Positions 14,935 through 40,738 of a DNA stretch of 64,000 nucleotides are shown here, piece by piece. The notes beneath the pieces are model-generated. The model saw only the letters and a program-made list of their open reading frames with translations. It was not told where the DNA came from and did no database searches. Location of the stretch: assembly GCA_000002445.1 (NCBI GenBank), contig CM000207.1, positions 800,001-864,000 of the forward strand, read 5' to 3'. A program made the position numbers and the translations under genes. The DNA comes from Trypanosoma brucei. Taxonomy: Eukaryota. Position 1 is the stretch's first letter; each line of letters starts with the position of its first letter.

Positions 14935-15224
14935 CGGGAGGTGTCTGTGCAATGCGGGCATGAAGGGAATCAGCCCTTTATCCCCATTACATCCCTGTCT
15001 TCCTTCTATCCCCACTGCTGTCGCCGTAGACAAGTGGGTGGCGGGACGAGGCGGGGGGCGAGTGAAGGCACAAAAGAGAAGAGGAAGGACCGAAAGAAGG
15101 AAGGAAGGATACAGCAGAGTATGAGGGTACGTAAATAAGTAAATATGGTATGGTTATGTATTTGTGAACAAAAGAAAACAAAAAGAAATGAAGAGGGAGA
15201 AACGAAAAAAAAACCAAGAAAAAA

Positions 15225-15252
15225 CAACAACAACAACAACACACACACACAC
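15225..15252 (+). repeat. (CAA)6(CA)6 microsatellite inside a ~600-bp purine-rich tract
   Basis: aaaaacaacaacaacaacaacacacacacacacg. The surrounding 15130-15700 plus strand is more than 85% A+G. Confidence 0.85.
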
Positions 15253-16815
15253 GAAGGAATACATATGAAGGGGTATGTTGATAAAAGTAAAAGTTGAGTG
15301 AGGGGAAAACAAAGGTAGCTACTGTAAGGAAATAAAATGAGGAAAGGAATAGCAAGAAAACAGGTAAAGAGAAAAAGAGAAAAAGGAATTACTCACTAAT
15401 TTTTTCTACCTATGACATAAAGGGAAGAATGTCCGGTGAAGTGGGTGAGTGGCGCCGAAAAAGAAAAAAAAATCAGCGAAAGCAAAAGAAAAAAGATGAA
15501 GAAGAAAAACGTGAAATTAACAAAAAGGATACAAGTAATAATAATGTAATACGTCTCTTCTTCAAAAAAAAAAACAACTAATTATATGTGGCCGCCAAAC
15601 GAACGGTAATAAACAAGAATAGAAAAAAGGAAAATATTTGAATAACTAAACAATGAAAATAAATTAAGGAACGGGGAGTGTCAAACCGACCTGACAAACC
15701 GTCTGGTGAGGGCTAGGTATATGCAATCACCACCGTCATCGCTGATTCTCAAGTGCATATTCCCAATAGGGCCACACATGCGCTCATGTACGGTCTCCTA
15801 AGGTGTATGTATGTGTGCGTTAGGTGTGTATGAAGCGAGCAAAGAAGAGAGGGGGGTCGAAATGGATGGCTCGGCAAACGGGTCTGCCAACTATTTTCTT
15901 CCCTCTCCCTTGGTTCTATTGCCTTGGTCGTTTTGCCATTTGAAAGACCTCTTCTTTGTTTTTTCTTCCATTGCACCGCGCCCGTCCCCGACGCCACCGG
16001 GTTCCCATTTTTTTTGTAACTGAAAAGAGGGACGGTACTGACACTTGGGGCGAATAACGGACACTAAGCGAACCTCACCCCTGAGTCTTCCCCACAAGGT
16101 GTTGGTTGCCGCGTGTGCGTGTGCGTGTGATTTGTGTGATACAGACATACGGCGCCGAAGTTGGGGGAAAAAAAGAGAAGAAAAGAACTGAGTTTGAAAA
16201 ATGGGTGTTGGGTGCAGCGAATGGGAAAAGGAAAAGAATGAGAGGAGGTGTAACCAATGCCTTTCGTGCGGCAGCGCGGTTGAAGCGTTCATTGCAGCTT
16301 TACGAAATGTTGCCAGCGCAGGGAAATAATTACCCCGAGAAGTGTCGGAAGGTGCATCTTATTGCAGATGTCCCTGAATGAGAAGTGATGAACGGAAATA
16401 AGGCATTGGAGGAGAGGAATAAAATACAAATAAAATCAAAAAAGGCTGAAAAGAAAAAAAAATAAAAGAGACCTAGCGGTATGCAGCTACCACAAATCGG
16501 CGGACACATGCCTCACTCCCGTGGCGAAGCAGAGGGTACGGCACCCAAACTGTAGGAGCTGCGATGTGTCACACTGCTGTGAGTGTCGCGGCGGCAAACG
16601 GCGTGTGCAGACATCACCGTTTCAATGACGTCAAAAAGGCAGTAGCGTTGAACGTGTCTGTGGAATAGAAAATAAAGTAGGCAAATAACTGCTCATACAC
16701 ATGAGGTCAGCCTCGCATCGCACCCCAATTATTCACCCTTTTCCTTTTCTGATTAACCGGTGGACTGAATAGGGCTCGGCCATGTTTGCTGCTTTTGGTG
16801 TTCTTATCTGCAGCG

Positions 16816-16843
16816 CCCCCCCCCCCCCCCACACACACACACC
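16816..16843 (+). repeat. composite microsatellite C15(AC)6
   Basis: gcgccccccccccccccacacacacacaccc, read directly from the sequence. Confidence 0.9.
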
Positions 16844-18043
16844 CGTAGCTCACGCCCTTGTCATTGTTGTCATTTCTTCCATACTCCCGTTTCTTATTTT
16901 CCCTTTACACCGCTGCGCAGTCCGAAAAAGGGAATTAAGGGAAAATATGGTGCCACGCCGAGAGCATAAAGAAGTCACCTCGGCGTTACTCTACTACTTA
17001 ACCCGGCGTGGCCCGCAAATGGTGATGCCCTTCCATCATTTGCCGCAGTAACTTTTTTCCAGTGCAAACTCACAAGACATGCATTTGGAACATATTGGCG
17101 CTGGGGATGTCAGGTGCCAACAGGGGTACTCTGTTTAATTGACGGTCAATAGCAGACAGCGTTTGTGTGATCTCCCTTTACCAGGCTGCAGATCCGTAGG
17201 GGTTGCCGAGTGGGAAGCCATCCGTTACGTTCCTGTCCCATTCCTCTCTTCCTCACACATGATGGTCGCAGCTGCCTGTAGGTATAATGTATTACCTATG
17301 GGTACAGTGAGCATTTGTTTGGAATAAAATGCCTTTTGCGACCATACAACAACCTACGCGTAATCGGCTACACTTATGCCTGAGCTGGTCGTGCGTAGGT
17401 CGCGTGTCTTGAAGGATGGTGCTGCAGGCGCTTTCATGAATGCGGGGCGTTTAAGTTTTCACACTCCCGAAGGGCGGGATTATCGATACGAAGCGTAACA
17501 TCTAGCTCTGAAAATGCGACCTAATCCCTATGCTCAGTCCGACAAACTCCCGAAAAAGTCTATCGTGCACGAGAAAGTCGAAAGGCCACCTATAATGGCT
17601 ACCAACCGTCACTCCCCTCACGGGGCGGGGGCTCAGATTATGATAAACATCTCGAGGAGGGGCCGGAAGCGGTGAACTTTGCACGTGGCTAGGTGCGAGA
17701 ACACGTTTGAATTCTTCACGAGGTCACTAGTTTGTAATATGGGGGAACGAATCACTCATATGGTTGTTACAACGCTATGCAGCTTGAGTGCTCATTTCTT
17801 CGTTTGTATGTACCAGATGTTATGTGAGAGACCAGCTTTTCAACTGTTTCTCAAATAATTGACGGACCTTCGTGAGCGATTGTACTTTTTTTTTTTCCAC
17901 CGTTTCGATGCTATTTTTTGTCCTTTCCCCCTTTTTGAACGCCAACTTTTAGTGAAATTAGTTGTACTTACTGTTGCATCAGGCGGCAGCAACCTAGATT
18001 GGATCGGACGAATCACATTGGCACCGAGTACTACCCCCCACTG

Positions 18044-25055: not shown

Positions 25056-27894
25056 TGCTGCCATGATGTTGTCTTCTTTTTTTTTTCCTTCTGGCTGACA
25101 CCGACGATGTGCAAGTGGGCACTTTGACGGTTGTGGTCGCTCGACTCGCCCTTGTGCGCCGCACACTAAAGATAACAATAATAACAATAACGTTAAAAAT
25201 AAATCCTAGGAAGCTTTACCACATCTATCACCACCACCACCCTCCCCGGTGGGCCTTTTTTCCCCCTTTTCTGGTGCCCCTCCCCCCCCCCCCTCCACAC
25301 ACACACACACACACACACATTAGGTCTTTTGAAAATAAGGGAACGGCATGTGCGGTTTTGACCCCTTTGGAGCAGCGGTGAATGGAGCAAACGAGCAACC
25401 CCACGCCATGCGGAGCAACAAAGAGAGACGTATCGCCTACACATGAAGCGGCTAGCGGGGATGAGGGTTGGAAAACGAATCGGGAGGAAACGGCCTTTTT
25501 GCCGGCGAAATAAAAATGGTGTCGGCGAGCGAGTAGGTACGGCAACGCGGGCCTTCAAGGCGGACACTTTCTTGATGAAGCGGATCGGCAACTTCCTTTC
25601 GGGGATGTAAGGCGTAACGCGGTTGTGCGAAACCCCGCGGGGGCCAATGTCAAGCACCATTTTTTTTTTTTTTTTTGCAACGACGGTAAACGGGTAGAGA
25701 AAGAAAAATAGTAACAGACAGGGCCTCAAGCACTATTTTCCCCCCTTTTACATATGGCAAGTCTATTTATATATGATGGGGGCCACAACGTAACCGTGAC
25801 AACGGGGAAGAAATCATCGTGAAGCTGAGCACCCCACTGCAACGGGTGCCGGATCGTGCAACGAAGTGGTTAAAGAGACATTTTATGGAAATCTGAACAA
25901 AAAAGGTGGAGCGCCACATTGTTGTTTAGTGATTGCATTTCGGGCCCGCTGCACCCAGCTGCTGCTGGAAGGGAAATGGGTTCGGGCCACGGCCCAAGCA
26001 CCGCGCAGACGCTCATTGTTTGGATGGAAAGGACGTTTTCATGAAGGAAATAGGGGTTAGGCACTGGAATTTGAGAGAGGTTGTAGGAGAAAGAGAGAAC
26101 TGGTTGGGTGAAAGCGGTTATAAGACGGGGAGAGGCGGTATACTTATTGAGACGTGCGGATGTTGAAGGGGGAAAAAAAGAAGGGGATATGCTTCAGGAA
26201 ATCTATGTGGTTTACGCGTCAATCTCTACACGAACGTGTGGGAGATGACGGGGGTCCGTATGGCTAGACGCCACAGAAAGGGGGACCGGACCCTCACAGA
26301 AACCGAAATCCAGTAGTCAAAAGCGCTGCGACATCTGAGCGGCAGTAGTTAGAGGGAACCGCGTCGCACAATAGCACCGGCTCGCACCGCATTTGAATCC
26401 ACAGCTCCCCCCTCCACTCCCTCCCCATGCTTTCCAGGAACCGTGGGTACGTGGTAATTCCCGAAAAATAATCGGTCAACCGCCCCATATTATGAAGTAG
26501 GCCCAGCTAAGGCATGGGGAATCCCCATGCACGCACAGAGGCGAAGGTTTTTTTCCTTTTTTATGAAGCATATTAGGTCAAACTCTCCACCGTCGCTTGC
26601 CGCCTGCGCCATGACGCTTTAACAGTGTGCAGTAGCAGGTGACGGCAAAAATGCGAACCTCGCACCTATACCAAAGTTCCAGAAGACGATTAAAAAAAGA
26701 AAAACAATATGTGAAATCCTTTTCCCGGATCAACACCCCAAACAGGGACCATCCGCCTACATCAGCAAAAGAATAAGTAATCCCTCTCTCTTTTTGGAAA
26801 TGCGCCTTCCCCGAGTGTCGACACCTGTGGTGTTGCCGTGTCACTTGGAGGGGGTTTCAAGTACAGACTGGGTTCGATACGTCGCGGATCGCAATGGAAT
26901 AATAGATGTTGTTCCCCTTAGTGTTTTGTGAGATGCAATGCGACCCGCAACCCAATAGCGGCATAAGCAATGGAATCAAAACAAATAAAACAAATGCCAA
27001 TACTAACAAAGACTCTTCTTTCCACGATGTTTCCACGGAGTGGTAAAGGAGGCTCTCCTCCGCGTGCCGATGGACGATGGAATGGGCGGACAAAGGGTGT
27101 AACAAGTAATAGCCCCAGTATGTCTAACCAACGCCCTGAACCGTCAGAGGCCCACACTTCGTCAACCTGTTCCCCAGCCTTTCTTCAGGCGCCTGCCGTG
27201 TTCGTACTTGAAATGGCGGGCTTTCGGTGTACTTCTCCTGAGGTCAAATTCACGGCCCATTCCACGGGAATATCGGAAAGGAAAGAGAGGCTTCAGTGTC
27301 CTAACCTCCGCCAAAAAACCGCCAACTACGTGCGGTAAAATCGACGCGGCGGGGGTATCACGGTATCCAGTGATTACGGATCGTCGCGTCATCCATCCAG
27401 AGAGAACCATCCCAAACAGGTTGCCGACCGCAGCTGCCCTTTATTTCCTTCGTCTGCTGCTGGCAGTAGTGCGCAATGAAATCGAGCTCAAGAAGCCAAC
27501 GCGTACCCTAAGAAGAAGGGTGAGGTGCCTTAGCGGTTTCCATCCTTCAGGGGCCGCACAAATACGCAGCCTCTTGGCGGAGCTGTTGAACGAAGCAGCG
27601 GAGGGCGGTGCCCGAAATAGACAAATTGGGACACCCGGTGTGTGCAGCCCAATAAGTGCGTTTATCGGTCGCATAGCGGGTACCTCAGCTACGACTAACT
27701 CCGCATACAAGATCTTTTCCGCGTCTGTGTATAAGAAAGAAAAGAAAGAAAAACCGCATCAAGGGCCAACGGAGGGGAAACACACACATCCATCCGAAGA
27801 GACGGTGAACAACAACGGTGGATCACATATTTTCCCTATGTGACAAGTGGTGCACTCAGCGCTCCTAACCGAAAAAGCATCAGAAGAATAGCTA
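25056..27894. other. convergent strand-switch region (predicted pol II termination zone) between the K-channel gene (+) and the LRR gene (-)
   Basis: Both flanking genes point into the interval. There is no long ORF here, only spurious low-complexity ORFs across C-run/(CA)n/T-run tracts. I scanned for a tRNA B-box and found none. Confidence 0.6.
25277..25319 (+). repeat. composite microsatellite C-run(CA)12
   Basis: cccctccccccccccccctccacacacacacacacacacacatt, lying in the convergent strand-switch region. Confidence 0.9.
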
Positions 27895-29367
27895 TCATCG
27901 AAGCAGATTCACTCCCCTCGCCTGGAGCTCCGATAAGACTTCACTGTCAATTTTGACACCCCTCAAGTTCACGGAACGCAACCGTGGCAAAGTCGTAAGC
28001 GCTTCCACACCCTTTTCCACTGACAGGCAAGAGTTGAGGCTAATTTCCTCCAAGGTCTTCACTGCAGCGAGGCAAGATACATCGGTAATGTCCATGCACG
28101 TATCGAGGCAAAGCACCACCAAACTGCGGCTTGCGCTCAAATCCCGCAGAGAGTCGTCTGTGATGGGCAAACACGTTCCATCTAGTCTACGGAGTTCAGG
28201 AAGCTGAGAAATATTGCCAATACCCTGTTTCACCTCTGTGCACGCGTCAAGATTTAACTCCCCTAGCGTTTTGAGGCTTACGAGTGCTGATAAATCCGTT
28301 AGATTATCGCAGGAAGAAATATCAAGTCTTACAAGACTCCGACTTGAGCACAAGTCTCGCAGAGCACAATCGGTAATGGGTGTGCAGCTCAAATCAAGTT
28401 CGTAGAGTCCTGGCAACTTACCCAGGTCACCAATACCTGCCACCACAGCCTCGCACGACTGGAGATTAAGGTACTTCAAGGTCTTCAGCTCCGCGAGGGG
28501 CGAGACGTCAGTTAGCTGGTCGCACCAGGAAAGGTTAAGTTTTACCAAACTCCGGCTTGAAGAAAGACCCTGCAAAAAAACGTCCACAATGGAGGAATAA
28601 CTTAGATCAAGTTCATATAGCGCTGGCAAACCACCCAGCTTCCCAACACCTTCCTCCAGAGATGTGCATGACTCAAGAGTAAGCTGTCTCAGAACCTGAA
28701 CATCAGCGATGTGCAGCACATCCGTTAGACAACCACACGAAACTATACAGAGATTCAAAAGACTGGTGGTGGCGCCTAGGCCACGAAGAGAGTTGCCCCT
28801 CATCGACGTGCCTATCAAATACAGCTCGCGAAGTGCCGGCAACTTTCCAAGACTACCGATACCCGTCTCAATACCCACACACTTACATATTGCCAGATGC
28901 TCCAATGCTGTCATCTCAGCAAGAGGTGAAACATCCTTCAAATAGGGACACGAATCAAGGCAGAGTTTTACGAGGTTGCACCCAGCGGTTAGGGTCTGCA
29001 AGCATCCTCCCCTAATTGGGGCCTCAGCAACTTCCAGTGCTTTCAGTTGGGGAAGATTTTTAATGCCAACGAAGTTTTCCAGCTTCGGTGCTTCTTCAAT
29101 AGACAACTCGCCTAGCGACCTCAGTTCGGGAATAGGGCTTAAGTCAGCGAAAGGGTATTCGCCCTCGAAGCGCAGTGTCTGAATGGAAGTGCACAAGCGG
29201 AGAGAACGCAAAGATTCCCTTTCAACTTTTTCCGTGAGGATGAGGTGATGGCAGCTACGCAGCTCATCACTCCCAGTGGCTCGTAGACTGCCAACACGCA
29301 ACCGGTTCGTTTCTCCACAACAAGGGCGAACATCTCCCCCAACACTCGCATCACTTCCTTCAAGCAT
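27895..29367 (-). CDS. leucine-rich repeat protein (ESAG8-like LRR domain, no RING finger), 490 aa
   Basis: It is the only long minus-strand ORF in the window. It has about 18 tandem ~23-aa repeats of the form LxxLxLxxCxxLTDVSPLAxLKxLxxLNL, which are cysteine-containing LRRs typical of the trypanosome LRRP/ESAG8 family. The ATG is at 29367-29365 on the minus strand, and a pyrimidine tract plus AG lies about 300 bp upstream on that strand. Confidence 0.8.
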   Translation of the reverse strand: MLEGSDASVGGDVRPCCGETNRLRVGSLRATGSDELRSCHHLILTEKVERESLRSLRLCTSIQTLRFEGEYPFADLSPIPELRSLGELSIEEAPKLENFVGIKNLPQLKALEVAEAPIRGGCLQTLTAGCNLVKLCLDSCPYLKDVSPLAEMTALEHLAICKCVGIETGIGSLGKLPALRELYLIGTSMRGNSLRGLGATTSLLNLCIVSCGCLTDVLHIADVQVLRQLTLESCTSLEEGVGKLGGLPALYELDLSYSSIVDVFLQGLSSSRSLVKLNLSWCDQLTDVSPLAELKTLKYLNLQSCEAVVAGIGDLGKLPGLYELDLSCTPITDCALRDLCSSRSLVRLDISSCDNLTDLSALVSLKTLGELNLDACTEVKQGIGNISQLPELRRLDGTCLPITDDSLRDLSASRSLVVLCLDTCMDITDVSCLAAVKTLEEISLNSCLSVEKGVEALTTLPRLRSVNLRGVKIDSEVLSELQARGVNLLR

Positions 29368-32300
29368 TGCAGACTCCCTACCACTGATGTAGACAACTTT
29401 ACTAGAGATAACTACGGAACAGATACAAGTTACGAACCTTTGGTGCCTCCTCCTCCGCTGTCGCGGTGTCTACTGAAGCAACAAGCTTCCTCTAAGGGTG
29501 GTAACGACCTCCCCAATAAATTTGCGATTAATCAGAAGTAGTCTTCCAACGTGCGCAGGTGAAAATGCATAGATACATAAATAAATACCAGGATCATTAT
29601 TATTATTTTTTTAAATGAAAGAAGGTGGCAACCAAAAGGGAAAGCGCGCTTTTGAACTCATTCATCCGACGTGACGGAAAAAGTTTTCGCACCACGTGCA
29701 AGGTTTCAACAAACACCGGTATACACCAACGCTCTTCCGGAGAAAATGTTGCTGGAGGCTGACGAAAAAGGCCCCCAAATAATGAAGATCACGGTTCATA
29801 AGCCGCACAAACTAACTGACAGGACAATGAAAATGCTCCCAAAGTATTTGTGAAAGTAAGGCAATCCCCACGCGCTACAGCAACTGTCCTCCGCACATTT
29901 CACTCGGTGTTTCACCGAAACGAGGACGACACACACATACACACACACACACGTCTACCCAGCCACTAAAAGCACATCAATCCTCAAAGGAGGAAAAAAA
30001 AAAACGGACAGAAGCTTGGCTGTAGTGTTTCGTTTAGCCCCTCATGTCAAAACAAAAGCTCTTTAAATACTTTAGTTACCTTTCCACTGGAATAACAGAG
30101 TTCCTTCTTCCACACTCAAATACACCAACGAGCTCCTTCACGCACCCTCGGGGTTACCGCGGCTCACCTCTTCTGCATTATGTTCGGCTCATATTGATCA
30201 TTCATTTAACCGGTCATACAATTTAAAATTTTCCCACAACGTAAATTAATCGAAAAAAAAATGAATACACACGAAAATACCAAACGCTCAACCAATAAAA
30301 GCTTGGAACCACCTGTACCACCAAGTCATGGGATACACGTGTCAGGAAAAAAATAATTCGGTAGGTGCAGATTGTACGTATGGATGCAACCAACAAACCA
30401 ACACACTGCAACCGCAACTGCCCGTGGGCCAGTATGAAAGCAACGGTATTTTGAACAGCCCTGCTTTCGTATTAATCAAATCTAAGTGAAGAGAACAACA
30501 ACAAAATATAAACGTGAATATACATTTCCACGAAGGGGTGCGTGCCCTTCCTGGCAGCGCCTGGGGTAAACCAGATATAACGTACTGAGTCGTCGATCAA
30601 AAGATTCCCAGGCGGCTGAATGTAGGCGGTGACAATGCTACAGCATACGCTAACCAGACCCCAGCTTTCTGTAGTGCCAACTGCAGTGCGTTGGGACATC
30701 TTCAATCCTCCTGTTACATGAAAAATGAAGGCAAGCTCGTTAAAACGTTGTTAATTACAACGAAAGGTGATGCCATAAAATACACACGAAACAAAAATGC
30801 ATTGATTTCAATACAATCGGCGCTGATAAAATTAGAAAACCTTAAGCTGCAACCGCACTACACTTCTTCATGGAAGCATAACGACGCACGCAAACGCATC
30901 CGATGATGCCCATTGGCGGTTTTCTCGACTGGGTAAAATCAGATGTGAACAATCGTTGCTACAATACTAGTGCCTTTTTACTTTCCATCTTACTCGTGCG
31001 CCAAGTTCATCACCAGGGCGGCAACAACGCTTCAAAAACCCACACATAGCGACCATATCGCAGTGATATATACTAAATTAATGTGGATACTCAAGGCTCA
31101 ACAAAGCGCAGGAAAGATACTGTGCGTTAACATTATTTTTTCTCACACACAAACAGATTTAACACTCTACATGGATACCCGGTCACGGAATAGAAGCTCT
31201 GCTATGTAGAACGACCCTCTACCCCAAGAAGTCTGGTGGTCCTGTTGAGGCATCACCGTCAACGAGGACGTACCTGCTAGGGCTGGGTAAAACTTCCGTA
31301 AGGCTCCAAACATGGCATTTACATATGAATGCACAGCAATGCATGCACAATATGTATGAGCCAAGGAAAAAACAACACGAAATAAAAGCGCCTGCTCAAC
31401 CTCACAACTGCAAGGGCTTAAATCACTCTTCTGGGGCAACGAACTTAACTGAACAACCCAACAAGTTGGTATTCAATTACCCAAAACGGGGGTCCGCCAA
31501 TGACTCAGAAGGAAAGGGATACGATGGTACGGAGCTGCTGTACGTTACATGGTTTCATTCTGGCACAGACCATGCAGATACCCTTAAGCACTTAGGAAAA
31601 AAAGATGTTTTTCATGTATCGTATCGGTATAGCACTTTAAAACGACGCACAAGTAATACGCCTTCATCAAGTCGGTCCACGCAGCTTAAAAGCCCAAGGG
31701 CTGAGTAGACGTAGCGCGCGCTAACTTCAACTTTAGTCCTCGTATACGGACGTGGGCGTCACTAAACGCAAGCACCCCCAACTTTCCCCTTTACACAAGA
31801 GATGTGGCACGACCACAGCGACACCCCCCAGTTATCTCCCCCTTTTTTCTTTGAATGGAGGTCCAAAAAGGCAACCCCCCGACTTCCTGCCCCATTTTCC
31901 CGTTCTGCAGAAGGCAGCAAGGATGAAGTGAAACATCAGGGAAGAACGCTCAGCCCCAGACTCTATCAGAAAACGAAACGGAAAGCCGCCCAACGACGAC
32001 GGTTAACACTTTCGTGCATAACACCTCCGCGCGTTCTTAAACGTACAAGCCAGCAAGTTAACCCCCCCCCCCCTCACAAGTAAAATTTTCTACGGCGTCA
32101 CTGCAGAGGAGACTCGGGGCTGCGCACATACAGGAAGAGAAGGTCTAAAAGCGACCCGGGTCATTTTGCTGGGCTCGCACTCCGTGCGGCAGTGCCAAAA
32201 AAGAGTCCCATTTCACCCCTGCACTGCACTCCCCCCTGGTTATGTGTCTCAAGCTGCGGACCGACAGCACACAGGGAAAAAAATGGGTGCAGTAAGTTCC

Positions 32301-32855
32301 CGGTGGGTGGTATGCATCCCTCTCGCATCCGCCGTGTGTAATGAGAGCCGCCGCATGGCGGAGGAAAACCGGTGCCATGGAGTTCCGAGGGATTAGTCGT
32401 TCCCTCCATTCACACGAAAGGTGTGGCAAAACGGGGGAGGGGTGACTGGCCTCTCGCCACAGTCCATCTAAGCCTGCCTGTACGGCAGCTGCAGTACTTC
32501 CTTCCACGGTATTGGCGGAGGCTTCAGCGAATAATTTTTCCTCAAACCGTCTCTTACCCGCGGCGAAAGAGGGGCGAGTGAGTGGACTCTTATGCCCCTC
32601 TTGTCAGGCTTCGAACGGTCTTGTCCCGATTGCCGGGTAAGGCCTAGCAGGAGTGTGAGAGCGGCCCTTCAAGGTGGCTCTGCAGGTGAACAAAGCCACT
32701 GGACTTGGACAGGCAGTGGTTCTTTCATGATCCCGTCATCACAGCCGCGGTCCGGTACGCCGCGGAGTGGCGTTTGTGTTCCAAGGGAGACTTGCCGAGC
32801 CGTTCACCTTCTGTGCGGGATGAGGCCGAACCTATTTCGTTCGGGAGCTCACCTC

Positions 32856-33170
32856 GGTGGTGACTGTGGTTTTGGTGGGTGCCTTGCTCCGCTGTGTTGA
32901 AATTTGTCGAGGTGCGTGCTATTTTTTCCTTTTCTTTTTTTTTTTTGGTATCGAGTGTGACTTTCTGGGGGTAATGTGGTTGTTATTTCGCTGGAAGTGT
33001 GCGCTCCCTGAGGTGCACACATCTGGGCGGTGCGTGCCCCTCTGGGGTTCTGCGGCGTTGGGTAGCGTGCCCCTTGGTGTTATTGTTCTTTCTAGCGAGA
33101 CTGCCGGTCGAGAAGTGTGTGTGTGGAGACACGCTGCTACGTGGGGTCGTCCTCCTGGTGTGTGTGTGTT
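32856..33170 (+). promoter_or_regulatory. GT-rich element in divergent strand-switch region (candidate RNA pol II initiation/H2A.Z-deposition element for the downstream plus-strand polycistron)
   Basis: Over about 315 bp the plus strand is almost entirely G+T (ggtggtgactgtggttttggtgggt ... gggggtaatgtggttgttatttcgc ... gaagtgtgtgtgtggagac ... cctggtgtgtgtgtgttgc). It lies about 3.8 kb upstream of the first plus-strand gene (36962) and about 3.5 kb from the minus-strand LRR gene ATG. GT-rich elements are described at T. brucei pol II transcription start regions. Confidence 0.45.
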
Positions 33171-36100
33171 GCTCGCGCGCGCATGCCTGCCTGCGCGGGA
33201 TTCGCTGAGCAATGTGTCGCTGACTTCCCTTTATAAAAAAAAAAGAAAAATAGTTCGCGATATGTTCGTTTGCTTGACAGACGCCGAAGTACCGTGTTCA
33301 CGCAAAGGGTCGATGAAGATCTCGTCTCGCCTTTCGCGCTTTCGGGGTCCCGCAGTTATCGTATCTTTTCGAAGTGCACCGGGCTAAGATTCGCGTGGGG
33401 TGCCGTGCCGATTTCCCGACTGGTGATGCACTTCAGTTACTGCGGTGTTGTTTCCGTTCATTTTTTGATTTTGAATCACTTTTTTTTGTGTTTTTGACAA
33501 ATACAGGTTCTGGTGTACGCGAAGCGTATGCTTTTCTGGAGGTGGGCTTGCGCCCGGAATCTTCGTCAAACTCAGAAGATTTGTGACGTTTTTGGTCAAG
33601 TCACTACTACACATATATATGTGGTGAGGGTTGGTAACTTGCCCTGTGAACTAGCAACCACCTGCTGTTTGCTAAAGGACCAACTTTCGCTTTGTATTAT
33701 ATTTTATTTGATTCCCCCGGGAGGTGGAATGTGTTGTCATTTGTTCTAATCTGGGTGATAATCCTCGCCTGATTTAAAAAAAAGGAAAACGGCGACGGGT
33801 CAGTGTTATGTTATCTTTGCGACCAGAACTGTTTGTCAACAAATAAGTGGGTGTATTATTGTATAAGGGGGAGAGATTCTGTTTGGACCACAGCGGATAA
33901 ATAATAGGAGCAAATATAACTGTATGTACTCCTGAGCACAATAGAGTTTTGTTCGAAGAAAAGGATCACTTCATTGATCCTGCTTTTGCCAAATTTTTGC
34001 CTTTTGGTGACAAGAGCACTTGATAGCGGCGTGTCGCAATTCGGTTGTATGGTTTCTATAACTTAAATCCCGTGGATGGAAGCTGCGGATGAATATACAG
34101 TTAACTGTGTGCACGGCTGCCATTATGATTTCCCCCCTCTGCGTTCTAACCAACCCTAAGCTCGCTGGTAAGTTTGTACGAAGCTTTTCGGAGGAAAGTA
34201 AAATATTTTTCGGTTATTCGTTACGTACTGAAAACATCTTATGGTTTATTTATATTAGGGATTTGCGTTCTTGAGCTGAACAATTAGACGTGTCCGAAAT
34301 GTAAGTTTCGATTACTGCTTTCATTTTCCCGGTCTACATATATACATCCGCGCACACATATATGTATGCATATATTAAGTGCGTGGGCTTGAGTCTCCAT
34401 GTATATGTACATAGCTTCTATTTTCTGTAGTAATACGAAGGTCGTGTTGTGCGCAACCACTCGTGTACTGTGTGCGGTAATGTTTTCAAATGGTTAAAAT
34501 TTCCCCCCTTTTAATAGAGCGGCGTGCACACGCTAGCTTCGGTTTATATTATTTACTTCTATCAAACGCTCGTGATGTTTAAAGGTTTCCTCCCCTTTTT
34601 GGCGTGCATGGGTATGGGGACACAGGATGTCGCTTGTTTTTTTATTTTCTGCGCTCTTATCATAAGTTGCACGTGTGGAAAATGTTAATCTGAAATAAAG
34701 CGGGTGTAAATTGTATCGTTCAGTAAAGGAGGGATGCGTTCACAGTATCGAAAAAGTTTCAGATCACACTGAAGGCAATCGACCGTATTTAAATGTAAAG
34801 GTGCAGTGATATTCCGACGGCACTATTCCGTTAGTTGCTTACTGTAGGCGCCGTGATGTTTTGAAAATTTTCTTATTTACTCTGTGTTTACTCATTGGGC
34901 CTTCTGTTTTTGACTACACCAGTGGGAAAAAACGTTTTTTACACTTGAACCACTCATAAAATGCTTTTTGCAATGAAAAAAAAAGAGAGTAAATCCACTA
35001 ATATCCCAACGAGGTAGGGCATTTCTTTTACATCAACAATGCCGAAAGAATATGGATTGGGGAAGAAACCTTAATTCCGGTAGGCTGACGTGAACTTTTT
35101 TATTACTTTTCTAGTGGCCGAAGGGTTCTTCAAGGAAAAAAAAATAAGGATTGGGATCTTTTTTTTTTTTTGACGACAACATCTTTGTCACTGTTCAACT
35201 CTCTTGAAAAGAATGTGATAAAATTGTGAGGTTATCTTTTGATGACTTGGAAAATATTGAGTATTTCCCGAAGTGGCCTAATTACGTGTGAGGTAAGGTC
35301 GATCGACGGTCTGAGCCGGGCGGTGCCCATGTTTGTATCGTTTCCCCTTTGTTTCTCATCACGTTAGGTCTGCTAGCAAGGTGCCCTAAGGAGGACCTTT
35401 TATTTAGATTAATATTTCCCCGATCACGTGTAGTCTATGAAGCAGGTCTGTGCGCTTGCTCAAGAGAAAACTAAAGGAATGATGTTGTTTTATCCTCGTT
35501 GTTTCGTAGTGCGGCTCATAGTTTTACAATGCCCCACATATTGCCCGAAAGGTGGCCCGGGCACAATTTGTTCAATCTTCAGAGGATGAGTTGCCCCGTT
35601 TTGATTCATTCACAGCAATATATCCCCTCTCAGCCCCTTCCAACGAGTGTCGTGTTTAACCCTATGTGCGGGTTGGGGAAAAGAACGGTTGTTTTAATGT
35701 ACGGTGGCTTTATGACTTAGATTATGAACCACAAACTGTGTTTCATATTGGTTGCACCAACCAACGTAAGGAGACTTGTATTGGCCACTTTGGTCAAGAT
35801 AATTCGCGTACTCTTCCCCTTCCTGAGTGCAAGGGCTTTGTGAAGTTGACCGGGCTATTAATTAAAAAAAGGGTTATGCCTTACCGACTTGATTGCAGTT
35901 GGAGGATGTCTCCATTGTTTGTTATCGTTCTGTTACCAGCGCTTCTCCGATTTCGTTTATTAGGGCGTGTTCTTTACTAAATTGGCTTCCACACAGGGAA
36001 AAACAAAGATGAGAAAAGAGGCGGCGATGAAGTGCGCTTTGTTTGCTCAGATATTCTGGTTAGTGCTGTCAGGGGTTGATTGGAAACCAGATACCTCAAG

Positions 36101-36961
36101 ATTGTTCTGCCAAGTGTTGTTTTACAAAAATTCTACCTATTCTGCACCTCCTTTTGGTAGTGGTGTATAACTCAATTGGATAGCAAGACACATGACACTC
36201 TGCTTCCTTTTGTTTGTGATCGTCGTTGTGATTCGCTGTACTTGCCTATGTGGGGAAGAGAAATGTCATTCTACCTTTTTTCTTTTGAAATTTGTCTCTT
36301 TGCTAGAATTTGGATGGACTTGTTGTCACGTACGTATCAATGTGTAATTATTGATATTCGGAATAAGTGAAAAAAAAATGGACGGGTCTTCAGGGACATC
36401 CATCCCTTTTCTTGATGTGCTGGAAAGTGTTGCGGCAGGTACTGTTCTGTAGTTGGGTGAGCGCTTGCGTCAGGTTTCTGAGCTACTGATGTTTTCCTCA
36501 GGTACGGACGAAGTGGGGGATTATTGGAAAATGTTTTTATCTAGTTTCTAATGTTTATCATTTGTTTACGGTATGTTGCCGCTACAAAAATACTGGTAAT
36601 TATGACGTTTCTGCTGCCCTCGGTTATGACGTACTTGGAAGGATCGAACGTTACTTTTTTTTTTAAAAAAAATCAAAACTGTTTAAAAATTTTACGTTGC
36701 AGTCGCTTAAAAAAAATTTATGTGTGTATTTCCCCCTATGTGTTCCGTTCACTGTGCCTGTAGGTCAAAGGACGTTTATGATGCCTTAAAAAAAAAGAAA
36801 TTGGTCCCTTGAACCTCGTATTTTGTCTTCCTTTTCCTATTTTGCTTTATTTACACCATCATGTATTTAGGGACATCGAGCTTAGGACTCATAGGGAAAC
36901 GGGTTGCCAATAATTTATTACTTTAATAGTGGTTCGTCTCGGTAGGTATTTTGGGTGTGAG

Positions 36962-39900
36962 ATGTCCGATCTCCTTGAGTTCTTTGTCCCAGCCTATGCC
37001 CGTGACTTGGAAAATATTGAAAAAGTTGGCGTGACTCAGTATCACATCAGTGAACCGTGTGATTTTGACGTCCCTCCACGGCAGCAGCTCGATGATCTTA
37101 CACGTCTTTTTGACAGTCTTCACAGGGAGAAGTCACCGACAGCTCTTTTTTCCAAACCGGAGCTGTTCGCAGCCCTTTTCACGTATATAAAGGCCATGGA
37201 GGACAAGGAAACAAGTTTTGCTGTCACGAGAGGTGCAAGACACAAAATATGTCATGAATCTGCCGAACGATTGAAGAAACTTCTCCAAATATGCGTGACA
37301 TATCTGAGGAGGAACGCCGAAAATGGTTTTAGAGATTCTCTGCTTTTGTGTTTGCGTTCAAATATTAAAATGTACGTTTTTGTTCTTTGCAATACCTTGC
37401 TGTCCACGGCACCGGGTATAGATGACGACGAGGGCATGTCTCCTTCATTCCAGAGGACGGGGCGAAAACGAAAGCGGAATAAGGGTAATCAAGAGGCAGG
37501 AATAGGTGAAGATGACAGTGGAGTCGATCAGGATGGCCGCGAACAGGCCCTTTCTGCACTTATAGATATTTTTTCACAGGACATTTTACAACTATGGACA
37601 GGGGAACTCATAGAAGAATCTATGCTGACTCTCATGCTGCGGATGCTACTTCACATGATCACCCAAAAGTGCAATATTCATGCCGATGTACAATCCGTGT
37701 CTGGTGCGCTTGTGGTTCTTCTTTCCAAGATATCTGCACAGATGATGGCCAGAGGTTCAATTGAGCCCAATGATTTTGTTTCTCCAATGATCGAACTGGT
37801 GTTGAAGTCTGAAGTAACCGCCCTTTTCTTCACGCGATTCGTCGCTGAAACAGAGAATGAGGGTGCGTCTGCTAATCACGCAGGCCGTGTAGTCACTGCG
37901 CTTATTGAAGGCGTTGCTGGTGTCGCCCTCTACGATGTTGTGGGTGATCCATCCGCTGCGAAAAATGTTGCTTTGTTTTTCAGTGAAGTCGCGAGGAGGT
38001 GCGTGAGCGTAACATCACGTATGTCCGATATTGTGATGCAAACCATTAACAGCGAAAGTTACGAAGTAAGGAAGTCGATCATCACTTGTGTCACTGAAAT
38101 GGTTATTCAGCGTTACAGTGGGCCTAACTGTAACGGCGAAGGTGAGGAGGAGATCCGTGATGGCTATCTCTCCGAGCTGCTGTGTCGCCTCATGGACTGT
38201 AATCCATATGTTCGTAATCACGTTGTGCACATGTGGGAGAAGTTGTTGGAGGCTCGAGCCGTCCCAAAACGCTTCCGCTTACCGCTAACGGGCGCTATTG
38301 TCGGCAGACTAGAAGACAGAAACTACCTTGTGAGGGACTCTGCCCTTCAGGTCGTCGTATCGATATTAAACAAGAGCTGGTTCGGCAGTGTATTGAGTCC
38401 ATCGTTGCTAGAAGAGAAGATTCGTGAGGCGACGGCTGCGGCCGAGGTTCTTTTTGAGTCCGTGGAAATGTATGTGAGGTGTCTAGAGGGCGTGAGAAAG
38501 TCCTCTACGTTTACGGAACCCCAAGCTAGTGGTTTGGCTGAAGAGGCAACGGGAGACGTTCCCGTTCCCATAGAGATGTCAAGCGAGCAAGAGTCTGCGA
38601 TTGATCGGGTTATCTCTTTTGAAGCATCAATGGAGTTCGCTAAATTGATAGCAAAATCACTAACGCATGCTACGTCCCTGCTGGATAGCCGAACTGAGCG
38701 AGATGCTATCGAGGCTATAAAGCTTGTGGTTGCCTGTAACCGACACCGGATCGATGAGGCTGAAAAAGCCTTTCTTCACGTACTGGTAATGGTTTACGAA
38801 GGGGAAATCAAGATTCAGTACGCTGTGCGAGACGCCCTCGTAGATGTTGTTTTCAACGCGTTTTCAAGGTCAACGACATCGTTAGCGGTGCAGAACACCG
38901 CCAGTGCTCATAAGTTGATTAGCTTTCTTCGCGGTGCAAAGGAGGGTGACATCAGCGCTGTTGATAGAGTATTCGCTCTCATTAGAACGAACCCTCCCCA
39001 CTGGCGACTCATTTCAGGCCACTTCATAGACGCTCTGTGGGGGATCGCAGGCGGTGCACTCGATGGCGGTGCCACTCTCGTTGAAAGGCGAATAGCTATG
39101 CGCCTTTTCAGCATTGTCTGCAAGCATGATTGGCACGCACTGGTATCCAGAAAAGAAAGCGTTGTGGAGTTTTTGAAGTCGGGCACTATGAAGGACAACG
39201 TTGTTTTGGCGTACTGCTTGAAGAGTCTCGAGGTTGAAGGTCAGGATCCACACTATCAGCCTATATCGTCCAAATTTGCGCCGGGTGAGCATGTAATTCT
39301 TGAGCAATTGGTTTTTCACTTGTGCAGAACCACAACTACGTTGTCTTCATGGCTAATCGTGGCCGATGCAGCTATTAGCGCTGTTCATCGCCTATGCGAA
39401 GTTCCCGCAGTTGTTTATATCTATGTATTGGAGTATCTCGCACAAAGAGTTGACGCTGATGTTAATACTCAGGCTCAGCTTTTTTTTGTATTGGGGCGTA
39501 CAGCGCTGAAACAGCTCGTTGCGGTTGATTGCCTAGAACGCCAGCATCTGAAAAGGGTCGATGTCGAAGCTATGGCTAAGAAGCCAGCAACGGAGCAGTC
39601 GGTTGTGGGTGATGCTGACGCTATGCACAAGGAATTGGGTTTGGGCTCTCACGAGTACAGAAGGCACGCGATCCAGGAACTAGCTCAACGCCGTAAGCAG
39701 GCTATCATGTCTGAGGGTTCAATCTGGCACCGTCTCTCCAAAGATGTTGTTGATGTCTGTCGGAAAAAGGCATCGCGGTCTGTGGGTAACCCACTAGAGA
39801 GGGTCTGCGCCGTCATGACTATGTCTGAGCTCATGATTGTGAGTGACCAGTTCTGTGAGCAGCATCTAGATCTTCTCTTCACCATCGTTTCCGACAAACG

Positions 39901-40738
39901 AGAATCGTGGGTTGTAAAGACGAACGCAGTCATTGCGTTGGGGGATCTGGCCTGCGTACACCCGAATCTTCTTTCTCCATATCTCAAGGTGCCAACAACG
40001 GGGTTCTTCAAACTTCTTAACGATGCTGATGTCAGAGTCCGTGCGGTAACGATTCAGGTGTGTTCCCACCTTGTTCTCGGGGAAATGCTCCGAATTCGAG
40101 ATCACCTTTATATCATAGTGAGGCTTGTGGCTGATCCTAATGAAACAATTGCTAGCAACGCGGTAACGTTCGTGCAGAACCTGGCGTTGAAGGAAAAAGA
40201 GAGGACGGGGAACCTAATTCCTCCTCTTGTTGTTCAACTAAGCCACGTCGTACCAGCTGATAAGTTTCAGCTGGCGATGCGGTCGCTTCTTGAGCGCGTT
40301 GAGGGCGATAAACCGACAGAATCACTAATAGAACGTTTGTGTCAACGGTTTGAACCATATTCGGAGCGCGGAACCAAAAAGCGGCAAATTGCACGCAATC
40401 TGGCTTTTTGCCTTCACGAGCTCACTTATGCAACTGAAAGGACTATCAAACGGATCACCTCGGAGGTCTGCTATCAACAGTATAAGCAATGGTTGCGGGA
40501 TGACGTCGTACTGGACTATTTTAAGGATATCGCCGCCAAGGCTAAAAAGGTTGGGCTTCGAATTGGAACAGAACGTCGTGATAAAGCGGCTATTGAGGAA
40601 TGGGAGGCTCGGATGCAGGCTGATTGCTGCGGACTGGATGACCCCAGAGGCAGTAGGCAGCTCACTGGTGACGAGTCTAGAGAAGCTGGAGACCAGAATG
40701 AACGCGACAACTGGGACACTACGGCTGACGGCTTGTAA
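36962..40738 (+). CDS. condensin complex subunit 1 (Cnd1/NCAPD2-like HEAT-repeat protein)
   Basis: The C-terminal block VVKTNAVIALGDLACVHPNLLSPYLKVPTTGFFKLLNDADVRVRAVTIQVCSHLVLGEMLRIRDHLYIIVRLVADPNETIASNAVTFVQNLALKE matches the conserved Cnd1 C-terminal domain. The rest is helical HEAT-like. The track start 36929 is GTG and the first ATG is at 36962. Condensin II D3 cannot be excluded. Confidence 0.7.
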   Translation: MSDLLEFFVPAYARDLENIEKVGVTQYHISEPCDFDVPPRQQLDDLTRLFDSLHREKSPTALFSKPELFAALFTYIKAMEDKETSFAVTRGARHKICHESAERLKKLLQICVTYLRRNAENGFRDSLLLCLRSNIKMYVFVLCNTLLSTAPGIDDDEGMSPSFQRTGRKRKRNKGNQEAGIGEDDSGVDQDGREQALSALIDIFSQDILQLWTGELIEESMLTLMLRMLLHMITQKCNIHADVQSVSGALVVLLSKISAQMMARGSIEPNDFVSPMIELVLKSEVTALFFTRFVAETENEGASANHAGRVVTALIEGVAGVALYDVVGDPSAAKNVALFFSEVARRCVSVTSRMSDIVMQTINSESYEVRKSIITCVTEMVIQRYSGPNCNGEGEEEIRDGYLSELLCRLMDCNPYVRNHVVHMWEKLLEARAVPKRFRLPLTGAIVGRLEDRNYLVRDSALQVVVSILNKSWFGSVLSPSLLEEKIREATAAAEVLFESVEMYVRCLEGVRKSSTFTEPQASGLAEEATGDVPVPIEMSSEQESAIDRVISFEASMEFAKLIAKSLTHATSLLDSRTERDAIEAIKLVVACNRHRIDEAEKAFLHVLVMVYEGEIKIQYAVRDALVDVVFNAFSRSTTSLAVQNTASAHKLISFLRGAKEGDISAVDRVFALIRTNPPHWRLISGHFIDALWGIAGGALDGGATLVERRIAMRLFSIVCKHDWHALVSRKESVVEFLKSGTMKDNVVLAYCLKSLEVEGQDPHYQPISSKFAPGEHVILEQLVFHLCRTTTTLSSWLIVADAAISAVHRLCEVPAVVYIYVLEYLAQRVDADVNTQAQLFFVLGRTALKQLVAVDCLERQHLKRVDVEAMAKKPATEQSVVGDADAMHKELGLGSHEYRRHAIQELAQRRKQAIMSEGSIWHRLSKDVVDVCRKKASRSVGNPLERVCAVMTMSELMIVSDQFCEQHLDLLFTIVSDKRESWVVKTNAVIALGDLACVHPNLLSPYLKVPTTGFFKLLNDADVRVRAVTIQVCSHLVLGEMLRIRDHLYIIVRLVADPNETIASNAVTFVQNLALKEKERTGNLIPPLVVQLSHVVPADKFQLAMRSLLERVEGDKPTESLIERLCQRFEPYSERGTKKRQIARNLAFCLHELTYATERTIKRITSEVCYQQYKQWLRDDVVLDYFKDIAAKAKKVGLRIGTERRDKAAIEEWEARMQADCCGLDDPRGSRQLTGDESREAGDQNERDNWDTTADGL

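What the first reader, a model, noticed from the sequence alone, without database searches (positions are those of the whole stretch)
31800..33220. Divergent strand-switch region with strand-mirrored composition: C-rich (G-rich on minus strand) flank, GC-rich core, then a 315-bp GT-rich element. Candidate bidirectional pol II start site.
- Coding strand flips here, from the minus-strand LRR gene at 29367 to the plus-strand condensin gene at 36962.
- Plus-strand composition changes in three steps:
  - It is A-rich at 29.7-31.7 kb, which is U-rich for a leftward transcript.
  - It is C-rich with C6-C12 runs at 31.80-32.08 kb.
  - After a GC-balanced core it is almost purely G+T at 32856-33170, and then T-rich as far as the condensin gene.
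- This mirrors what is reported for T. brucei pol II start regions, where GT-rich tracts promote H2A.Z deposition and initiation. It would place the start site of the downstream 12-gene polycistron (condensin to SNU13) at about 33.0-33.3 kb.
- If correct, it would also make the LRR gene a one-gene transcription unit driven from the other side.
Basis: partly seen in the sequence, partly recalled or inferred. Interest (0 to 1): 0.58.

Follow-up and report, generated by a model that had tools for sequence, protein, structure and literature searches.

The report
Known trypanosome divergent transcription start region
This is the gene-free gap on Trypanosoma brucei chromosome 9 where two RNA polymerase II transcription units start back to back, with the G/T-rich sequence typical of such regions; it was catalogued in 2010, so it is a real but known feature.

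Summary
The window is T. brucei TREU927 chromosome 9, Tb927_09_v4:800,001-864,000 (window coordinate = chromosome coordinate minus 800,000).

- The only minus-strand gene is LRRP (Tb09.160.3410). It is separated from condensin CND1 (Tb09.160.3470) by a 7.6-kb ORF-poor gap.
- The G+T versus A+C skew has its sharpest inflection of the whole 64 kb at about 32,283.
- 32,856-33,170 is the most GT-rich 315-bp stretch in the window, at 71.7%. That is not "almost purely" G+T.
- C6, C6 and C12 runs lie on the other side of the inflection.

- Kolev et al. 2010, Table S14 (built with 5'-triphosphate RNA-seq), lists Tb09.160.3410 as a single-ORF minus-strand "Divergent" unit. It lists Tb09.160.3470 to Tb09.160.4950 as the plus-strand "Divergent" unit.
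- The same paper maps processed non-coding transcripts inside the gap, Tb9.NT.29 (31,096 to 29,614, minus) and Tb9.NT.30 (35,368 to 36,709, plus). These bound the two start zones.
- Wedel et al. 2017 established GT-rich directional promoters at such regions.

Two corrections. The "12-gene polycistron" is cut off by the window edge. The region is better described as two opposed promoters than as one bidirectional site. The exact start position at 33.0-33.3 kb remains inferred.

Verdict: already known, low interest.

The parts
27895..29367 (-). LRRP gene Tb09.160.3410. It is the only annotated ORF of the minus-strand unit.
   Evidence: ORF; LRR Pfam hits; named 'uncharacterized protein Tb09.160.3410 [T. 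b. brucei TREU927]' and LRRP; listed as a single-ORF Divergent unit.
29614..31096 (-). Tb9.NT.29, a processed non-coding transcript (1,482 nt, 0.95 RNA per cell) upstream of LRRP. Its 5' splice-acceptor site sets a lower bound for the minus-strand start.
   Evidence: Kolev Table S7. The sequence has a minus-strand AG (CT at 31,097-31,098 on plus) preceded by a pyrimidine tract. Kolev states that RNAs lacking SL or poly(A) were excluded from the novel-transcript count.
31800..32080 (-). Flank that is G-rich on the transcribed minus strand (C 34% on plus), with G6, G6 and G12 runs. Proposed 5' end of the minus-strand start region.
   Evidence: composition and runs. GGGGGGGGGG, the top coding-strand 10-mer in Wedel Dataset EV1 (132 versus 17 in TSR region 1), matches the minus strand at 32,062-32,073.
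32236..32301 (.). Compositional switch point between the two transcription directions.
   Evidence: Cumulative skew minima at 32,236 (G-C) and 32,283 (T-A and keto). Largest 3-kb-arm skew contrast in the window at 32,301.
32080..32855 (.). GC-rich, strand-balanced core (57.6% GC) between the two skewed arms. Candidate non-transcribed spacer and possible site of core promoter elements or ORC1/CDC6 binding (inferred).
   Evidence: No Pfam hit for its ORFs, no Rfam hit, no repeats. Tiengwe 2012 reports ORC1/CDC6 binding centrally between the two H4K10ac peaks of divergent SSRs in general.
32856..33170 (+). GT-rich element (71.7% G+T) with a T-run at 32,928-32,950 and GT runs at 33,115-33,125 and 33,156-33,170. 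Proposed directional promoter and H2A.Z-deposition element at the 5' end of the plus-strand start region.
   Evidence: Eight Wedel 10-mer hits on the plus strand inside it, against 88 in the whole 64 kb.
35368..36709 (+). Tb9.NT.30, a processed non-coding transcript (1,341 nt, 1.58 RNA per cell). It is the first mapped splice-acceptor site of the plus-strand unit and sets an upper bound for the plus-strand start.
   Evidence: Kolev Tables S7 and S13. AG at 35,366-35,367 preceded by the polypyrimidine tract 35,330-35,359.
36962..40738 (+). CND1 condensin subunit 1 (Tb09.160.3470), the first annotated ORF of the plus-strand unit, which runs to Tb09.160.4950.
   Evidence: The ID is assigned from its order between Tb09.160.3460 (ends 833,387) and Tb09.160.3490 (starts 842,618).
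25056..27894 (.). Convergent strand-switch region where the upstream plus-strand unit (to Tb09.160.3380) and the LRRP unit end.
   Evidence: Skew maximum at 25,151-25,156; ORF map; unit boundaries in Kolev Table S14.

Best explanation
The region is the divergent strand-switch region of T. brucei chromosome 9 between LRRP (Tb09.160.3410) and CND1 (Tb09.160.3470). It holds two oppositely oriented, dispersed RNA polymerase II start regions, separated by a GC-rich spacer of about 0.8 kb centred near 32.3 kb.

On each side the non-template (coding) strand becomes G/T-rich:
- Leftward: G6, G6 and G12 runs at 31.80-32.08 kb.
- Rightward: a T-run plus GT-rich block at 32.86-33.17 kb.

By analogy with the tested GT-rich promoters of Wedel 2017, these tracts favour directional initiation and deposition of H2A.Z/H2B.V nucleosomes (inferred).

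Pol II most likely starts leftward between about 32.3 and 31.1 kb, and rightward between about 32.3 and 33.3 kb; the hard upper bound on the right is 35,368. The primary transcripts are first trans-spliced at 31,096 (Tb9.NT.29, then LRRP) and at 35,368 (Tb9.NT.30, then CND1 and a long polycistron reaching Tb09.160.4950).

Shown: the gene arrangement, the composition, the published listing as divergent start units, and the processed transcripts. Inferred: the exact start positions, the causal role of the GT tract, and the chromatin marks at this particular locus.
For: - Locus identity: exact protein matches named T. brucei TREU927 / T. equiperdum and exact ORF coordinates in Kolev Tables S1 and S2.
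- Published start-unit table: both units are listed as 'Divergent'. The method and the statement that 5'-PPP tags were enriched at every divergent unit are.
- Processed transcripts Tb9.NT.29 and Tb9.NT.30 lie inside the gap. Matching AG and polypyrimidine signals are in the sequence.
- Composition: window-wide extremes of GT content and of skew contrast fall exactly here.
- Wedel coding-strand 10-mers switch strand at 32.07-32.30 kb.
- No tRNA, snRNA or other Rfam gene could otherwise define the boundary.
- The gap ORFs have no Pfam hit. Kolev lists them as 'hypothetical unlikely' with no detectable transcript.
- Comparative evidence: CND1, or the gene directly before it, is first in its plus-strand cluster in T. 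vivax, T. theileri, T. cruzi and L. infantum. A GT-rich (65-71%) first 500 bp follows the skew minimum in T. vivax, T. theileri and T. cruzi, but not in L. infantum, where there is no sharp GT-rich step. T. cruzi shows the order GC-rich core, then T16, then (GT)8, as in T. brucei.
Against: - I could not view any 5'-PPP RNA, Pol II or H2A.Z track for this locus. Start positions are bounded, not mapped.
- Wedel found that all 12 fragments of two start regions had promoter activity, so initiation may be spread well beyond the GT block.
[quoted passage not shown] The GT tract may therefore be accessory.
- G or C homopolymers of 10 or more also occur inside transcribed units of this window.
- The dSSR sequence is not conserved outside Trypanozoon, so conservation cannot single out a functional element.
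Confidence: 0.85

Rival explanations
1. Initiation is dispersed over the whole gap of about 5-7 kb (the H2A.Z domain). The 315-bp GT block is only one of many weak contributors, so there is no preferred start at 33.0-33.3 kb.
For: In Wedel 2017, all 12 overlapping 1.8-kb fragments of two start regions drove reporter expression above background. The plus strand stays keto-rich (55-61% G+T per 500 bp) all the way to CND1.
Against: The same paper finds primary transcripts and Pol II concentrated at the 5' end of H2A.Z regions. It also finds the highest activity in the 5'-most fragments, and the strand-biased 10-mers are most enriched in the first fifth. The GT maximum sits exactly at that 5' edge here.
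Confidence: 0.3
2. The actual promoters are short, sequence-specific core elements, probably in or at the edges of the GC-rich core (32.08-32.85 kb). The T-run and GT tract are a downstream accessory feature (nucleosome exclusion, H2A.Z, pausing) rather than the promoter.
For: PMC13532274 summarises Cordon-Obras 2022 as follows: two separate unidirectional promoters per dSSR, a 75-bp core with three motifs, and poly-T/poly-GTGT at the Pol II peak lying outside the essential core. The GC-rich block is the richest non-coding GC block of the window. T. cruzi shows the same order of GC core, T-run, then GT-run.
Against: Synthetic GT-only promoters were sufficient for directional transcription and H2A.Z deposition. 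The Cordon-Obras paper is not held, so its motifs could not be searched here. There is no sequence conservation in the core outside Trypanozoon.
Confidence: 0.3
3. The mirrored skew is a passive by-product of transcription-coupled or replication-coupled mutation bias around a unit boundary or origin. It has no instructive role in initiation.
For: Keto skew follows the direction of transcription across the whole window, including inside units. ORC1/CDC6 binds centrally in most divergent SSRs, and 19 early origins centre on them.
Against: The GT block is a local spike (71.7% against about 57% in the transcribed flank), not a plateau. Synthetic GT elements are functionally sufficient and orientation-dependent. 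The same spike recurs at the orthologous boundary in T. vivax, T. theileri and T. cruzi despite complete sequence turnover.
Confidence: 0.1
4. The GT-rich stretch is part of a protein-coding gene: ORF 32,857-33,387, annotated in part as Tb09.160.3460.
For: A 176-codon open frame exists. A gene caller also called it in T. equiperdum.
Against: It has no Pfam hit and a low-complexity translation. Kolev lists it as 'hypothetical protein unlikely' with no detectable transcript.
Confidence: 0.02

Closest known systems
T. brucei divergent strand-switch regions with GT-rich dispersed Pol II promoters (Siegel 2009; Kolev 2010; Wedel 2017)
   Same: Divergent gene clusters and a gene-free gap of 7.6 kb. 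The coding strand is G/T-rich at the 5' edge of each side. Poly-G, GT-repeat and T-run 10-mers from Wedel's list are present with the expected strand bias. The locus itself is listed as two 'Divergent' Pol II units.
   Different: Nothing essential. One arm drives only one annotated ORF plus one non-coding RNA. About 16 such single-ORF units appear in the part of Kolev Table S14 that I read, so this is not unusual.
Sequence-specific 75-bp core Pol II promoters in T. brucei dSSRs (Cordon-Obras et al. 2022, Cell Rep 38:110221; known to me only through citing papers)
   Same: Two separate directional promoters per dSSR. [quoted passage not shown]
   Different: The motifs could not be tested because the paper is not in the library. 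Whether this locus carries them is unknown.
Metazoan dispersed (CpG-island-type) promoters
   Same: Broad initiation zone, no TATA-like focus, a GC-rich block, H2A.Z-marked chromatin, and divergent transcription.
   Different: In trypanosomes the two directions come from separate promoters with about a 4:1 sense bias. Each drives a polycistron resolved by trans-splicing. CpG observed/expected in the core is not elevated (0.81).
Orthologous CND1-proximal unit boundary in T. cruzi, T. theileri, T. vivax and L. infantum
   Same: CND1, or the gene directly before it, is first in its cluster, and the skew minimum lies upstream of CND1 (about 3.0 kb in T. cruzi and T. theileri, about 6.4 kb in T. 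vivax and about 7.1 kb in L. infantum). In the three Trypanosoma species a GT-rich first segment follows the switch, and T. cruzi has GC core, then T16, then (GT)8.
   Different: L. infantum shows no sharp GT-rich step. There is no primary-sequence similarity. T. cruzi and T. theileri have an extra 693-aa oxidoreductase gene before CND1. The opposite-strand neighbours are lineage-specific: LRRP, trans-sialidase-like genes, a BNR-domain gene, or retroelement fragments.

Membership tests
Trypanosomatid divergent strand-switch region / Pol II transcription start region | Flanking protein-coding genes point away from each other across a gene-free gap of several kb | tested here: met
   LRRP on the minus strand ends at 29,367 and CND1 on the plus strand starts at 36,962. 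The gap ORFs have no Pfam hits and are published as untranscribed 'unlikely' ORFs.
Trypanosomatid divergent strand-switch region / Pol II transcription start region | 5'-triphosphate primary transcripts enriched at the site (experimental start mapping) | tested here: met
   Literature look-up, not raw data. Kolev 2010 Table S14 lists both units as 'Divergent'. The text states enrichment at every divergent unit. Tracks for this locus were not available to me.
Trypanosomatid divergent strand-switch region / Pol II transcription start region | Enrichment of H2A.Z, H2B.V, H4K10ac and BDF3 over the region | not testable with these tools
   No ChIP-seq tracks are accessible. Kolev says the 5'-PPP sites coincide with all sites marked by modified and variant histones, but no locus-specific value was seen.
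Trypanosomatid divergent strand-switch region / Pol II transcription start region | Boundary not explained by a Pol I or Pol III gene (tRNA, snRNA, rRNA) next to the unit | tested here: met
   ARAGORN found 0 genes. Rfam found 0 hits at the gathering threshold for the window and 0 at E<=1 for 25-37 kb.
GT-rich directional promoter element (Wedel 2017) | G/T-rich 10-mers enriched on the coding strand at the 5' end of the start region, with strand asymmetry | tested here: met
   Plus-strand hits lie at 32,928-33,170 and minus-strand hits at 29,704-32,073, including G12. G+T is 71.7%, the window maximum, compared with 79.6% in the synthetic GT_210 promoter.
GT-rich directional promoter element (Wedel 2017) | Orientation-dependent promoter activity and H2A.Z deposition when moved to a neutral site | not testable with these tools
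   This requires a reporter assay. This fragment is not among the published constructs: regA and regB are on chromosome 10, and the targeting primers are absent from the window.
Sequence-specific core Pol II promoter (Cordon-Obras 2022) | Presence of the three motifs of the 75-bp core promoter | not tested
   The paper is not held. Only a secondary summary was available, so the motif sequences are unknown to me.
G-quadruplex-forming start-site element | Canonical G4 motif (four G3+ runs, loops of 12 nt or fewer) on the coding strand | tested here: not met
   No such motif on either strand between 29.4 and 36.9 kb. The nearest is at 25,262-25,293 on the minus strand.

The most novel reading that the evidence does not exclude
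The order 'GC-rich strand-neutral core, then T-run, then GT-repeat block' seen here recurs at the orthologous unit boundary in T. cruzi (L005:6,980-7,115) and, more loosely, in T. vivax, despite total sequence turnover. It could be a conserved modular grammar of trypanosome Pol II promoters. In that reading the GC core carries the sequence-specific core promoters for both directions (and perhaps the ORC1/CDC6 site), and the T/GT module sets direction and H2A.Z deposition. A related possibility is that the one-ORF LRRP unit is a separately, epigenetically regulated unit, as reported for the HpHbR unit (PMC11796357).
Probability: 0.2. Interest if true: 0.4.

Novelty: already known. Interest (0 to 1): 0.12.

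Why it matters
This changes little. The locus was catalogued as a pair of divergent Pol II start units in 2010, and GT-rich promoter tracts were described in 2017.

Its practical value is as a compact test case:
- One arm drives a single ORF.
- The start zones are bounded to about 1 kb on the minus strand and at most 3 kb on the plus strand by mapped splice sites.
- The GC core, T-run and GT block are cleanly separated.

That layout would suit deletion or inversion experiments asking whether the GT tract or a core element in the GC block is the true promoter.

It also shows that a reader with only raw sequence can locate such start regions from skew alone. The skew inflection and the GT maximum are the window-wide extremes.

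Tried and rejected
- Hidden RNA gene in the gap: ARAGORN found none. Rfam found nothing at the gathering threshold or at E<=1.
- Hidden protein gene or pseudogene: the gap ORFs have no Pfam hits. tblastn with the 693-aa oxidoreductase that precedes CND1 in T. cruzi and T. theileri finds no remnant anywhere in the window.
- Repeats or mobile element in the gap: only low-complexity A/T runs.
- G-quadruplex explanation: no canonical motif in the gap.
- Whether the window is one of Wedel's tested regions or reporter sites: none of the targeting or integration primers occur in it, and regA and regB are on chromosome 10.
- Conserved non-coding blocks: blastn of the gap against the upstream regions of T. 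vivax, T. theileri, T. cruzi and L. infantum gave only chance-level matches of 25 bp or less.
- Constraint from T. equiperdum: identity is 98.5%, but nearly all 'differences' within 31.7-33.3 kb are N gaps beside homopolymers, so this is uninformative.
- Synteny of LRRP and the K+ channel: tblastn found neither within 10 kb of CND1 in the other species.
- Literature:
  - The Cordon-Obras 2022 paper is not held.
  - Wedel Dataset EV2 holds sequencing metadata only, not start-region coordinates.
  - Text searches for the gene IDs found nothing further.
  - Two searches failed on term syntax.
- The 'glucose transporter pseudogene' annotation in the convergent region could not be verified.

Full report
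**Where the window comes from**

The LRR protein encoded at 27,895-29,367 (minus strand) is identical to a protein on a Trypanosoma equiperdum contig. An exact-sequence look-up names it 'Tb09.160.3410 [Trypanosoma brucei brucei TREU927]', a leucine-rich repeat protein (LRRP). It also names the neighbouring calcium/potassium channel and condensin subunit 1 as TREU927 proteins on a 3.06-Mb contig.

ORF coordinates in the supplementary tables of Kolev et al. 2010 (PMC2936537) match window ORFs exactly after subtracting 800,000. Examples are Tb09.160.3490 at 842,618-843,337, Tb09.160.3560 at 850,662-852,017, Tb09.160.3430 at 831,325-831,708 and Tb09.160.3460 at 832,974-833,387. The window is therefore Tb927_09_v4:800,001-864,000, and the finding covers 831,800-833,220.

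**Checking the observation**

The ORF map shows plus-strand genes up to 25,055. That last gene is a Slo-like K+ channel, probably TbK2/Tb927.9.4820 by inference. A single minus-strand gene, LRRP, follows, and plus-strand genes resume with CND1 at 36,962.

- 29.7-31.7 kb is A-rich (A 33.5%, T 22.3%).
- 31.80-32.08 kb is C-rich (34%), with C6, C6 and C12 runs.
- 32.08-32.855 kb is balanced and GC-rich (57.6%).
- 32,856-33,170 is 71.7% G+T.
- The stretch from there to CND1 is T-rich (33.9% T against 24.8% A).

The pattern is far beyond chance:
- Its binomial probability is 2e-8 against the plus-strand intergenic background.
- The cumulative keto skew has a V-shaped minimum at 32,283.
- The skew contrast between 3-kb arms is the largest in the window at 32,301. 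The opposite extreme, at 25,151, marks the convergent switch just past the K+ channel gene.
- The block 32,090-33,230 is the GC-richest non-coding block of the window.

Two details are overstated. The element is not 'almost purely' G+T. The C12 run alone is not diagnostic, because G or C homopolymers of 10 or more occur six times in the window.

**What else could be there**

Nothing competes with the start-region reading:
- No tRNA, tmRNA or Rfam family is detected, even at E<=1 over 25-37 kb.
- Repeats are limited to A/T low complexity.
- There is no canonical G-quadruplex motif in the gap.
- ORFs in the gap have no Pfam match. Kolev et al. list them as 'hypothetical protein unlikely' with no detectable transcript (Tb09.160.3420, 3430, 3450, 3460).

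**Published experimental evidence at this exact locus**

[quoted passage not shown] They state that tags were enriched 'at every divergent transcription unit', and at all sites suspected to be promoters from modified and variant histones.

The table contains three consecutive lines for this part of chromosome 9:
- 'Tb09.160.2340 to Tb09.160.3380, plus, Internal'.
- 'Tb09.160.3410 to Tb09.160.3410, minus, Divergent'.
- 'Tb09.160.3470 to Tb09.160.4950, plus, Divergent'.

Tb09.160.3470 is CND1 by its order between Tb09.160.3460 and Tb09.160.3490.

The same paper's Table S7 lists two novel processed transcripts inside the gap:
- Tb9.NT.29: 831,096 to 829,614, minus strand, 1,482 nt, 0.95 RNA per cell.
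- Tb9.NT.30: 835,368 to 836,709, plus strand, 1,341 nt, 1.58 RNA per cell.

I checked the sequence at both 5' ends. An AG dinucleotide sits directly upstream of each (35,366-35,367 on plus; CT at 31,097-31,098 on plus, which is AG on minus), preceded by pyrimidine-rich tracts. That is as expected for trans-splice acceptor sites.

These sites bound the starts. Leftward transcription must begin at a coordinate above 31,096. Rightward transcription must begin below 35,368. Together with the skew inflection at about 32,283, this leaves about 1.2 kb for the minus-strand start zone and at most 3.1 kb for the plus-strand zone.

**Relation to GT-rich promoters**

Wedel et al. 2017 (PMC5579346) reported the following:
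- Primary transcripts and Pol II concentrate at the 5' end of H2A.Z-enriched start regions, with a 4:1 sense bias.
- 10-mers enriched on the coding strand are mostly runs of G or T and are most frequent in the first fifth of start regions.
- Synthetic 210-bp and 416-bp GT-rich elements drive orientation-dependent transcription and H2A.Z deposition.

I scanned the window with their 157 10-mers. In the gap, plus-strand matches cluster at 32,928-33,170: a T-run with TTTTTTTTGG, then GTGTGTGTGG, GGTGTGTGTG and others. Minus-strand matches lie at 29,704-32,073 and include GGGGGGGGGG, their most enriched 10-mer, at 32,062-32,073.

The element's G+T content (71.7%) approaches that of their synthetic GT_210 promoter (79.6%). 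The window is not one of their tested regions or reporter sites.

**Comparative evidence**

Orthologues of CND1 were found and their loci fetched:
- In T. vivax, CND1 follows a 3.8-kb AT-rich plus-skewed stretch. That stretch begins with a 71.7% G+T segment abutting a GC-rich region with retroelement-like ORFs.
- In T. cruzi and T. theileri, one extra gene (a 693-aa Oxidored_FMN protein) lies between the skew minimum and CND1. The first 500 bp after the minimum are 65-68% G+T.
- In T. cruzi, the order is a GC-rich core, then T16, then (GT)8 (L005:6,980-7,115). T. brucei shows the same order.
- In L. infantum, CND1 follows a divergent gap near a chromosome end, without a sharp GT-rich step.

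There is no primary-sequence similarity between the T. brucei gap and any of these. The opposite-strand neighbours are lineage-specific: LRRP, trans-sialidase-like genes, a BNR-domain gene, or retroelement fragments.

The unit boundary next to CND1 is thus old. The compositional architecture is retained in the three other trypanosomes examined, but the sequence is not.

**Mechanism and its uncertainty**

The best-supported model has two opposed, dispersed Pol II promoters separated by the GC-rich core. G/T-rich coding-strand tracts set direction and favour H2A.Z nucleosomes.

Three things remain inferred:
- The exact start positions.
- Whether the GT block is the promoter or an accessory. [quoted passage not shown] That paper is not held.
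- The chromatin state of this particular locus.

ORC1/CDC6 binds centrally in most divergent switch regions, so the GC core may also be a replication-factor site. That is speculation for this locus.

- The downstream unit does not end at SNU13. The L7Ae-family ORF at 61,778-62,332 is confirmed, but the unit continues to Tb09.160.4950. The 12 genes are what fits in the window.
- The LRRP unit has one annotated ORF but also a processed non-coding RNA.
- 'Bidirectional start site' is better phrased as two directional promoters about 0.8-1.1 kb apart.

**Verdict**

Interest is low.

Noticed in passing
window 25,056-27,894: Convergent strand-switch region. The skew maximum at 25,151-25,156 lies only about 100 bp past the K+ channel stop codon. 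A C12 run sits at 25,282-25,293, inside a minus-strand G4-like motif at 25,262-25,293, and a T-run lies near 25,660. Kolev Table S2 calls Tb09.160.3400 (25,976-27,479, plus) a 'glucose transporter pseudogene'. My three-frame translation has 10-24 stops per frame, and the two longest open segments have no Pfam hit, so I could not verify that label.
   Followed up: partly
window 14,935-17,998 (C15 run at 16,816-16,830): A 3-kb ORF-free stretch inside the upstream plus-strand unit has an unusually low G+T fraction (48.8%), a C15 run and 22 minus-strand matches to Wedel's 10-mers. It looks compositionally like a minus-strand start flank. However, Kolev lists it as the long 3' UTR of Tb09.160.3270 (poly(A) sites at 816,250-816,805) and lists no internal start here.
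   Followed up: partly
window 52,532-55,348 and 57,727-60,504: Tandem paralogous GAF-GAF-PDEase genes, the cAMP phosphodiesterases. Tb09.160.3590 is named 'cAMP-specific phosphodiesterase' in Kolev Table S6.
   Followed up: partly
L001 (T. equiperdum OVI), matching window 32,040-32,062 and 32,914-32,933: The T. equiperdum assembly has N gaps exactly beside the C12 run and at the T-run of the GT element. These homopolymers break short-read assemblies, so apparent divergence in the gap is an artefact.
   Followed up: yes
L002 (T. vivax) 229-5,800: A GC-rich (56-66%) region upstream of T. vivax CND1 carries overlapping ORFs on both strands. By eye, one resembles a non-LTR retrotransposon endonuclease fragment. 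No domain search was run on them.
   Followed up: no
L004 (T. theileri) 7,460-9,541 and L005 (T. cruzi) 7,492-9,573: A 693-aa Oxidored_FMN/Pyr_redox_2 gene sits between the strand switch and CND1 in T. cruzi and T. theileri. It is absent from the T. brucei window, and no remnant is detectable by tblastn. In T. brucei the equivalent space holds only the non-coding transcript Tb9.NT.30.
   Followed up: yes
L005 (T. cruzi) 351-2,206, minus strand: By eye, the opposite-strand neighbours of the T. cruzi boundary resemble trans-sialidase-like ORFs (they contain the VTVTNVFLYNRPL motif). In T. theileri the neighbour is a BNR-domain gene. The conserved unit boundary therefore abuts lineage-specific gene families in each species, as LRRP does in T. 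brucei.
   Followed up: partly
window 36,929 versus 36,962: The mechanical ORF for CND1 starts at GTG 36,929 (1,269 aa).
   Followed up: yes
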